From Heterodontus francisci (taxonomy: Eukaryota), in assembly GCF_036365525.1 (NCBI RefSeq), contig NC_090399.1, forward strand, positions 66,334,862 to 66,398,861: a stretch of 64,000 bases of DNA, in the 5' to 3' direction. Below the pieces are notes generated by a model. It saw only the letters and a list, made by a program, of their open reading frames with translations. It was not told where the DNA came from and did no database searches. The translations under genes were made by a program, and so were the position numbers. Below, piece by piece: positions 39,445 to 39,650 of this stretch; positions within the stretch are counted from its first letter, which is position 1, and each line of letters begins with the position of its first letter.

Positions 39445-39650
39445 TGACTCAGCTCCCTGTTACTGAGACAACTTCACACCACAGTTGCAGGGACTTTCCA
39501 ATGGAGATTAAATAGGGGAGGGGCTGACTGAGGATGTCCAATCAGAATTAAACTCAGCAGAGTGTCATTGTTGCTGGGCAGAAAATCTGCAGACTGTTCA
39601 AATCTTGTTATTCAGCTGATTTCCTGGAAATAAGCAGAGTGAAACTGAGA
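39445..39650 (-). promoter_or_regulatory. Candidate distal immune enhancer (AP-1, NF-kB, Y box, X box, GAS)
   Basis: TGACTCA at 39445-39451 and GGGACTTTCC at 39490-39499. Minus strand: CCCAGCAACAATG (39566-39578), 20 nt, CTGATTGG (39538-39545). TTCCTGGAA at 39621-39629. All lie in a non-TE island between CR1 fragments. Confidence 0.55.

What the first reader, a model, noticed from the sequence alone, without database searches (positions are those of the whole stretch)
39445..39650. Candidate distal MHC enhancer: AP-1 + NF-kB + X-Y module + GAS in ~200 bp of non-repeat DNA
Seen: a consensus AP-1 TGACTCA, a perfect kB site GGGACTTTCC, an X-like CCCAGCAACAATG 20 nt from a Y box CTGATTGG in the same orientation as the promoter module, and a palindromic ATTTCCTGGAAAT (GAS). 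They sit in a short island between CR1 fragments ~17.6 kb upstream of the ATG. Knowledge: RFX/NF-Y X-Y modules recruit NLRC5/CIITA, distal S'-Y' modules are known in the mammalian MHC class II region, and class I enhancer A is a kB site. I saw no clear kB site in the proximal promoter. Inference: this is a long-range enhancer or an orphan/alternative promoter; a TATTTAA follows the Y box on the minus strand.
Basis: partly seen in the sequence, partly recalled or inferred. Interest (0 to 1): 0.7.

Follow-up and report, generated by a model that had tools for sequence, protein, structure and literature searches.

The report
Composite distal shark MHC-I control element
About 17 kb upstream of a shark's classical MHC class I gene lies a single-copy 200-base stretch that joins an NF-kB site and an X-Y box pair, each resembling control DNA of other class I genes in this genome; it is likely a long-range inflammation-responsive enhancer, but it may be a leftover of gene duplication, and no activity was tested.

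Summary
All motifs are present where stated. They lie in non-repeat DNA (39411-39637) between two LINE fragments, 17.6 kb upstream of the ATG of a classical-type class I gene beside TAP1, TAP2 and an immunoproteasome-type exon. The four-motif cluster arose in 0 of 2000 shuffles.

The island looks two-part. That element lies 5-6 kb upstream of 5 of 18 class I paralogues examined, with the kB site invariant. Its X-Y half resembles the second X-Y module of class I promoters and a family of 11 S-X-Y cassettes confined to this 1.4-Mb region.

X-to-Y spacing equals that of mouse H2-Eb. The S box that decides NLRC5 action in mouse is missing. AP-1 and GAS are weakly supported, and no paralogue has the composite.

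Best reading: a distal NF-kB/RFX/NF-Y enhancer of this gene (0.5). Main rival: an inert duplication scar (0.35). An alternative promoter is unlikely. This is a new variant of a known kind, from sequence evidence only.

The parts
39411..39637 (.). Single-copy island (candidate composite enhancer) between a LINE fragment and a GA-rich tandem repeat
   Evidence: tandem repeat 39637-39859
39445..39451 (.). AP-1 consensus; not shared with homologous elements
39468..39525 (+). kB half: similar to the core of the conserved class I upstream kB element
39490..39499 (+). Perfect kB site; a 14-nt block around it is identical in the island, in 31819 and in the two paralogues aligned
39508..39514 (-). TATA-like TATTTAA, 23 nt after the Y box; no exon seen behind it
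39515..39524 (+). GC/KLF-type box (label recalled), similar in the 31.8-kb element
39538..39545 (-). Y box (inverted CCAAT), perfect
39566..39578 (-). X-like box: RFX-type half-site intact, one base shorter in the 3' half than the cassette family
39594..39600 (-). S-box position: TGAACAG instead of an ACCT core (S box not met)
39619..39631 (.). GAS palindrome; not shared with homologous elements
31661..31985 (+). Conserved non-coding kB element (site 31819-31828), 9.6 kb upstream of the promoter X box; 65-67% identical to elements upstream of class I paralogues
22212..22298 (-). Proximal promoter module 1: ISRE-like 22289-22298, S box 22269-22275, X 22240-22253, Y 22212-22219
22108..22175 (-). 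Proximal promoter module 2: degenerate X, Y-like CTCATTGG; similar to the island's X-Y half
21862..21910 (-). Leader exon of the class I gene
11259..11909 (-). Class I alpha1 (11649-11909) and alpha2 (11259-11531) exons
37937..39410 (-). LINE fragment, truncated inside its endonuclease domain at the island's edge

Best explanation
The island is a single-copy composite of an NF-kB site and an X-Y box pair, each resembling class I control DNA elsewhere in this genome, and it likely acts as a long-range inducible enhancer of the classical class I gene 17 kb away. Shown: the motifs, their spacing, single-copy status, similarity to a conserved upstream kB element and to class I X-Y modules, and a proximal promoter with ISRE-S-X-Y but no kB site. 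Inferred: RFX and NF-Y would bind X-Y and keep the site open; NF-kB, and perhaps STAT and AP-1, would add TNF/TLR/IFN-gamma input; the element would loop to the promoter, where the intact S box would recruit NLRC5. Without an S box the island is predicted to be a poor NLRC5 platform by itself. It would work with the 31.8-kb element, which is the better candidate for a displaced enhancer A.
For: Cluster beyond chance: 0 of 2000 shuffles. It is the only kB+GAS+AP-1 cluster in 173 kb of non-tandem MHC DNA and 111 kb of other loci. X-Y pattern genome-wide: 17 of 28 hits lie on the MHC contig, which is 1.2% of the genome; 15 of 26 after removing the two hits the pattern was built from; reversed-pattern control 0. 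RFX half-site to Y distance is 24 nt, as counted in the mouse H2-Eb reporter primers. With the kB 10-mer left out, island flanks resemble the 31.8-kb element (1 of 10000 random flanks score as high) and two paralogue elements (55 and 143 of 10000); 9 other genomic GGGACTTTCC sites score -4 to 20 against the island's 48. With the Y box left out, the island resembles promoter module 2 (1-78 of 4000, six modules) and the cassette family (0-2 of 4000), but not module 1 or the class II-alpha module (402-2205 of 4000). The kB block is the longest invariant run (18 nt) in a 65-67% identical element shared with paralogues that lack some peptide-anchoring residues. The nearest class I promoter is this gene's (17.3 kb; the next is 94 kb away). 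Mammalian precedent: distal X/SXY elements bind RFX and CIITA and act as enhancers (PMC7866136, passage).
Against: No S box: TGAACAG sits where mouse H2-K, H2-Eb, this gene's promoter and the cassette family have an ACCT core, and the S box decides NLRC5 transactivation in mouse (PMC4374748). The X box has a one-base deletion: 4.5 bits over 14 positions against about 20 for intact boxes, 14.2 bits over the first 10. The kB+X-Y composite was found upstream of 0 of 18 paralogues (10-69 kb scanned each, one all tandem repeat). AP-1 and GAS are absent from the aligned homologues, and kB+GAS+AP-1 alone arises in 85 of 2000 shuffles. The perfect motifs are why the island was noticed, so their integrity is not an unbiased sign of selection. 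Similarity to promoter parts is what a duplication scar also predicts. A tiling ChIP of the whole human MHC found no intergenic CIITA sites except the known enhancers near class II genes (PMC2278383, passage).
Confidence: 0.5

Rival explanations
1. Inert scar of class I tandem duplication and deletion: a piece of one copy's upstream kB element was joined to another copy's promoter module 2, and the motifs survive by chance.
For: The two halves resemble two elements that lie 5-10 kb apart at intact genes, in the gene's orientation but in swapped order. The contig holds 64 class I exon matches and several duplicated or displaced promoter pieces. S box lost, X box deleted by one base, composite absent at 18 of 18 paralogues.
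Against: kB (14-nt block) and Y are perfect although the flanks are barely alignable. The island's RFX half-site is better than that of any of the six module-2 copies. GAS and AP-1 would be extra luck.
Confidence: 0.35
2. Alternative or orphan promoter firing on the minus strand (X-Y-GC-TATA order) and splicing into the class I gene or making a non-coding RNA.
For: X, Y, GC box and TATTTAA are in promoter order. Nine of the 11 cassettes carry a TATA-like box behind Y and a minisatellite. The island's downstream part weakly resembles the three nearest cassettes (5, 6 and 26 of 500 shuffles).
Against: That resemblance is absent for the B and C clusters (112-409 of 500). A LINE begins about 100 bp behind the TATA-like box and no exon is evident. 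Contigs of two RNA-like runs of one sample cover the leader and 5' UTR at 99% or more identity up to about 22050, next to the proximal promoter (contigs cannot fix a start site).
Confidence: 0.07
3. A functional enhancer whose target is another gene of the class Ia region, for example the divergent class I gene whose promoter lies at C29:66.469 Mb, or TAP/PSMB genes.
For: The island lies between two divergently oriented class I genes, with three further S-X-Y cassettes in the same interval.
Against: It is 17 kb from this promoter and 94 kb from the other, and it is co-oriented with this gene, as the paralogues' kB elements are with theirs.
Confidence: 0.05
4. Chance co-occurrence of short motifs.
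For: Motifs were picked after the fact. Eleven X-Y pattern hits occur off the MHC contig.
Against: Similarity to class I control DNA extends outside the motif cores. The 11 off-contig hits score 5-13 of 35 against the cassette family, the island 16.
Confidence: 0.03

Closest known systems
Distal S'-Y'/XL enhancers of the mammalian MHC class II region (Krawczyk 2004, Gomez 2005: seen only as citations and as summarised in passages of PMC7866136, PMC4243378, PMC2278383)
   Same: X-Y pair with canonical spacing far from any start site; one of several dispersed modules in an MHC.
   Different: Lies at a class I gene, 12-14 Mb from the class II-alpha matches; lacks an S box; is joined to a kB site; binding untested.
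NLRC5-type SXY module of MHC class I, B2m and Tap1/Psmb9 promoters (PMC4374748, passages and primer list read)
   Same: RFX-type X half-site and Y box at about 20 bp. The gene's proximal module and the 11 cassettes match the full layout, with an AACCT-type S box 18 nt before the half-site, as in H2-K.
   Different: The island has no S box and is not promoter-proximal.
Enhancer A (kB sites) of mammalian class I promoters (PMC7922096, passages)
   Same: Perfect kB consensus tied to a classical class I gene whose promoter has an ISRE and SXY.
   Different: Here no kB site is proximal; kB sites lie 9.6 and 17.2 kb upstream, and 5-6 kb upstream in paralogues.

Membership tests
NLRC5-type class I SXY module | S box (AACCT-type) about 16 bp before X | tested here: not met
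   TGAACAG at that position, 4 of 7 to the H2-K S box, core broken
NLRC5-type class I SXY module | RFX-type X box | tested here: inconclusive
   Half-site intact (14.2 bits over 10 positions), one-base deletion behind it (4.5 bits over 14)
NLRC5-type class I SXY module | Y box 20-22 bp after X | tested here: met
   Perfect CTGATTGG 20 nt after the 13-mer; 24 nt from the half-site, as in H2-Eb
NLRC5-type class I SXY module | Position just upstream of a start site | tested here: not met
   17.3 kb from the proximal module; no exon seen behind it
NLRC5-type class I SXY module | RFX-dependent NLRC5 occupancy and transactivation | not testable with these tools
   needs ChIP or a reporter
Distal S'-Y'/XL enhancer (class II type) | X-Y homology with conserved spacing, away from promoters | tested here: met
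Distal S'-Y'/XL enhancer (class II type) | Class II-type S box (GACCT core) | tested here: not met
   4 of 7 to the H2-Eb S box
Distal S'-Y'/XL enhancer (class II type) | Near class II genes | tested here: not met
   Class II-alpha matches at C29:51.97 and 53.92 Mb, island at 66.37 Mb; class II-beta not located (one search found nothing, uninformative)
Distal S'-Y'/XL enhancer (class II type) | In vivo RFX/CIITA binding and enhancer activity | not testable with these tools
   needs experiments
Class I enhancer A | kB consensus site | tested here: met
Class I enhancer A | Proximal position next to ISRE and SXY | tested here: not met
   No kB site with up to 1 mismatch in 21900-22360
Class I enhancer A | TNF/NF-kB inducibility | not testable with these tools
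   needs a reporter
Interspersed repeat | Many genomic copies | tested here: not met
Eleven-copy S-X-Y cassette family of this genome | 90-100% identity over the cassette, with S box | tested here: not met
   Not retrieved by the family search (11 of 11 hits are other places); only X-Y-level similarity

The most novel reading that the evidence does not exclude
Sharks run their class Ia region with a network of distal modules. The NF-kB input that mammals place in proximal enhancer A sits in a conserved element 5-10 kb upstream that predates the split between this gene and the paralogues sharing it; S-X-Y cassettes have been multiplied in front of TAP1 and class I; and the island is a new composite enhancer made by joining a kB element to a promoter X-Y module. 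Distal X-Y enhancers, described in mammals at class II genes, would then also serve class I in an early-diverging jawed-vertebrate lineage.
Probability: 0.25. Interest if true: 0.65.

Novelty: new variant of a known kind. Interest (0 to 1): 0.42.

Why it matters
If active, it shows that long-range X-Y enhancers also serve MHC class I, and that inflammatory (NF-kB) control of class I in cartilaginous fish comes from distal elements rather than the promoter. It names three small testable pieces: the island, the 31.8-kb element and the S-X-Y cassette. The island also offers a natural S-box-less module for testing how old the NLRC5 S-box rule is. If inert, it is an example of how class I duplication scatters promoter parts.

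Tried and rejected
Expression: no RNA holder was listed for the island stretch, and three RNA-like runs of one sample gave no cover on 39433-39637. Neither is evidence either way. None of the 22 loose ends shown at the leader (3 not shown) looked like the island by eye.

Conservation in another species: run X5 (organism B) has no contig on the island at 80% likeness, although it covers class I proximal promoter sequence. A hole proves nothing, and the promoter matches may be paralogues. A metagenome pattern scan gave 5 hits, all scoring 22-33 against the island, i.e. chance.

Genome patterns: kB with a Y box 30-50 nt away gave 8 hits, only the island on the MHC contig. kB plus GC box gave 13 hits against 30 in the reversed control, so no enrichment.

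Other: Rfam found 0 matches. The class II-beta profile found nothing. The gene behind cassette cluster C was not identified. Membership of the island in the 11-copy family was rejected. A look-up of earlier findings by place and by sequence returned nothing.

Literature: eight searches listed no paper on distal class I enhancers in cartilaginous fish. The library lacks most subscription papers, and I opened no supplements; alignments in the figures and supplements of PMC4374748 and PMC10751288 could bear on the S-box and gene-order statements.

Full report
1. Context. The window is G000:C29:66,334,862-66,398,861 in a 6.0-Gb genome. A class I gene lies on the minus strand: leader 21862-21910, alpha1 11649-11909, alpha2 11259-11531. 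Its alpha1 exon matches PDB 6lup best (E 1.5e-33; that this is a shark class I structure is recalled). By eye it keeps the peptide-anchoring residues of classical class I (numbering recalled). TAP1-like exons (65.13 and 65.25 Mb), a TAP2-like exon (65.66 Mb) and a proteasome-beta exon (65.90 Mb) lie within 1.3 Mb. This fits the elasmobranch class Ia region described in PMC10751288 (passages). The profile search gave 64 class I exon matches, 59 of them on this contig.

2. Observation. Every motif is present at the stated place and orientation. The island is non-repeat from 39411 to 39637. The proximal promoter has an ISRE-like site, S, X and Y, a second degenerate X-Y module, and no kB site even with one mismatch. 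In 2000 shuffles of 23.9 kb of non-tandem window DNA an X-Y pair arose 7 times, kB+GAS+AP-1 within 200 bp 85 times, X-Y+kB once and all four never. The motif set was chosen after the fact, so the X-Y pair and kB carry the signal; AP-1 and GAS add little.

3. The X-Y half. A genome-wide X-N24,25-Y pattern gave 28 hits, 17 on this contig and 0 in the reversed control. Two of the 17 are the island and the promoter from which I built the pattern. Four are class I paralogue promoters. Eleven are near-identical cassettes found only between 65.097 and 66.465 Mb. With the Y box left out, the island resembles promoter module 2 of this gene and five paralogues (1-78 of 4000 random segments score as high) and the cassettes (0-2 of 4000). 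It does not resemble module 1 of three promoters or the class II-alpha module (402-2205 of 4000). Using only the 30 nt before X, two of six module-2 copies still stand out (4 and 5 of 4000), two are marginal (62, 92) and the cassettes do not (478, 1462). The distance from the RFX half-site to Y is 24 nt, the same as I count in the H2-Eb primers of PMC4374748. In H2-K, H2-Eb, this promoter and the cassettes an ACCT-core S box ends 18 nt before the half-site; the island has TGAACAG there. That paper (passages and primer list read) shows that the S box decides NLRC5 transactivation. So the island looks like an RFX/NF-Y platform but is not a member of the NLRC5-type SXY family.

4. The kB half. 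The window's only other kB consensus, at 31819, lies in non-repeat DNA that aligns with the island (score 51; 0 of 1000 shuffles). This 325-bp element recurs upstream of class I paralogues. I scanned 10-69 kb upstream of 18 paralogous promoters or first exons and found it at 5, 5.2-6.1 kb from the X box and in the same orientation, with one extra copy. In the two copies measured, identity is 65-67% and the longest unbroken run, 18 nt, covers the kB site. The five copies look closely alike, so this is about one independent comparison. The alpha2 exons checked near these promoters lack some anchoring residues, which suggests non-classical genes. The island shares only about 60 bp of this element. 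With the kB 10-mer left out its flanks still score 48 against 31819 (1 of 10000), and 33 and 30 against two paralogues (55 and 143 of 10000). The kB+X-Y composite itself was found at 0 of the 18.

5. How it most likely works. Inferred, not shown: RFX and NF-Y bind X-Y; NF-kB, and perhaps STAT and AP-1, bind beside them; the element contacts the promoter 17 kb away and supplies the inflammatory input the promoter lacks, while NLRC5 acts at the promoter's own S-X-Y. I give this 0.5. The same anatomy is what a deletion between tandem class I copies would leave (kB piece next to another copy's module 2, in swapped order), so an inert scar gets 0.35. The two readings can be joined: a scar later kept by selection. 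An alternative promoter gets 0.07: the order X-Y-GC-TATA is there, but a LINE follows within about 100 bp, resemblance to the cassettes' TATA region is weak (5-26 of 500 for three copies, 112-409 for the rest), and RNA-like contigs sit on the leader and 5' UTR next to the proximal promoter (one sample, contigs only).

6. Known and new. Distal X/SXY enhancers are known in the mammalian class II region (PMC7866136, PMC4243378, passages). A tiling study of the human MHC found no other intergenic CIITA sites (PMC2278383, passages). kB input to mammalian class I is described through the promoter's enhancer A (PMC7922096, passages). PMC6155461 (abstract only) reports a duplicated motif in dolphin class II promoters, a loose parallel. 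Eight searches listed nothing on distal class I elements in cartilaginous fish. Three unreviewed notes of this scan describe orphan or multiplied SXY modules near class I and TAP1 in other elasmobranch genomes; I could not test them and count them as leads only.

7. Verdict. It is a real, non-chance element built from class I control parts, and a new variant of a known kind. Function and cross-species conservation are open. The 31.8-kb element has the stronger conservation evidence and should be tested alongside. Interest 0.42.

Noticed in passing
window 31661-31985; G000:C29:42,924,755; 42,526,585; 42,389,078; 32,798,521; 40,302,035; 40,289,543: Conserved non-coding element with an invariant kB site, 5.2-6.1 kb upstream of five class I paralogues (one has a second copy at 18.5 kb) and 9.6 kb upstream of this gene. 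The five paralogue copies look closely alike, so they amount to about one independent comparison.
   Followed up: yes
G000:C29:65.097-65.111, 65.597-65.615 and 66.420-66.465 Mb (L063-L070, L073-L075): Eleven 90-100% identical S-X-Y cassettes, nine with a minisatellite, GC-rich stretch and TATA-like box behind Y. Four lie upstream of a TAP1-like gene, four lie 3' of the located TAP2-like exons, three lie between two divergent class I genes. None found elsewhere in the genome.
   Followed up: partly
window 22108-22253 and paralogous promoters (L085, L086, L104, L115, L238): Class I promoters here carry two X-Y modules in tandem about 100 bp apart; in this gene and several paralogues an inverted CCAAT box follows. 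The second X box is degenerate.
   Followed up: partly
G000:C29:65,129,058 and 65,245,863: Two TAP1-like exons on the same strand about 117 kb apart, suggesting a TAP1 duplication; a TAP2-like exon at 65.66 Mb (PDB scores tie with ABCB9); a proteasome-beta exon at 65.90 Mb that looks like PSMB8 (name recalled).
   Followed up: partly
G000:C29:51,964,638 and 51,969,848: An X-Y module 6.4 kb before a class II-alpha domain exon, and a perfect kB site between them.
   Followed up: no
window 1-10955 and G000:C29:66,261,235-66,261,684: The nearest C1-set exon, the probable alpha3 exon, lies about 85 kb behind alpha2; the intron is largely tandem repeat.
   Followed up: no
window about 26900-29800: Broken LTR-retrotransposon remnant (integrase and RT matches) between the promoter and the kB element; with tandem arrays it may explain the longer distance in this gene.
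   Followed up: no
window 29860-30200: Short non-repeat stretch of unknown nature; its 97-aa frame has no Pfam match.
   Followed up: partly
window 41266-57708: A 16.4-kb array of a 91-bp unit; some copies carry an AP-1 consensus.
   Followed up: no
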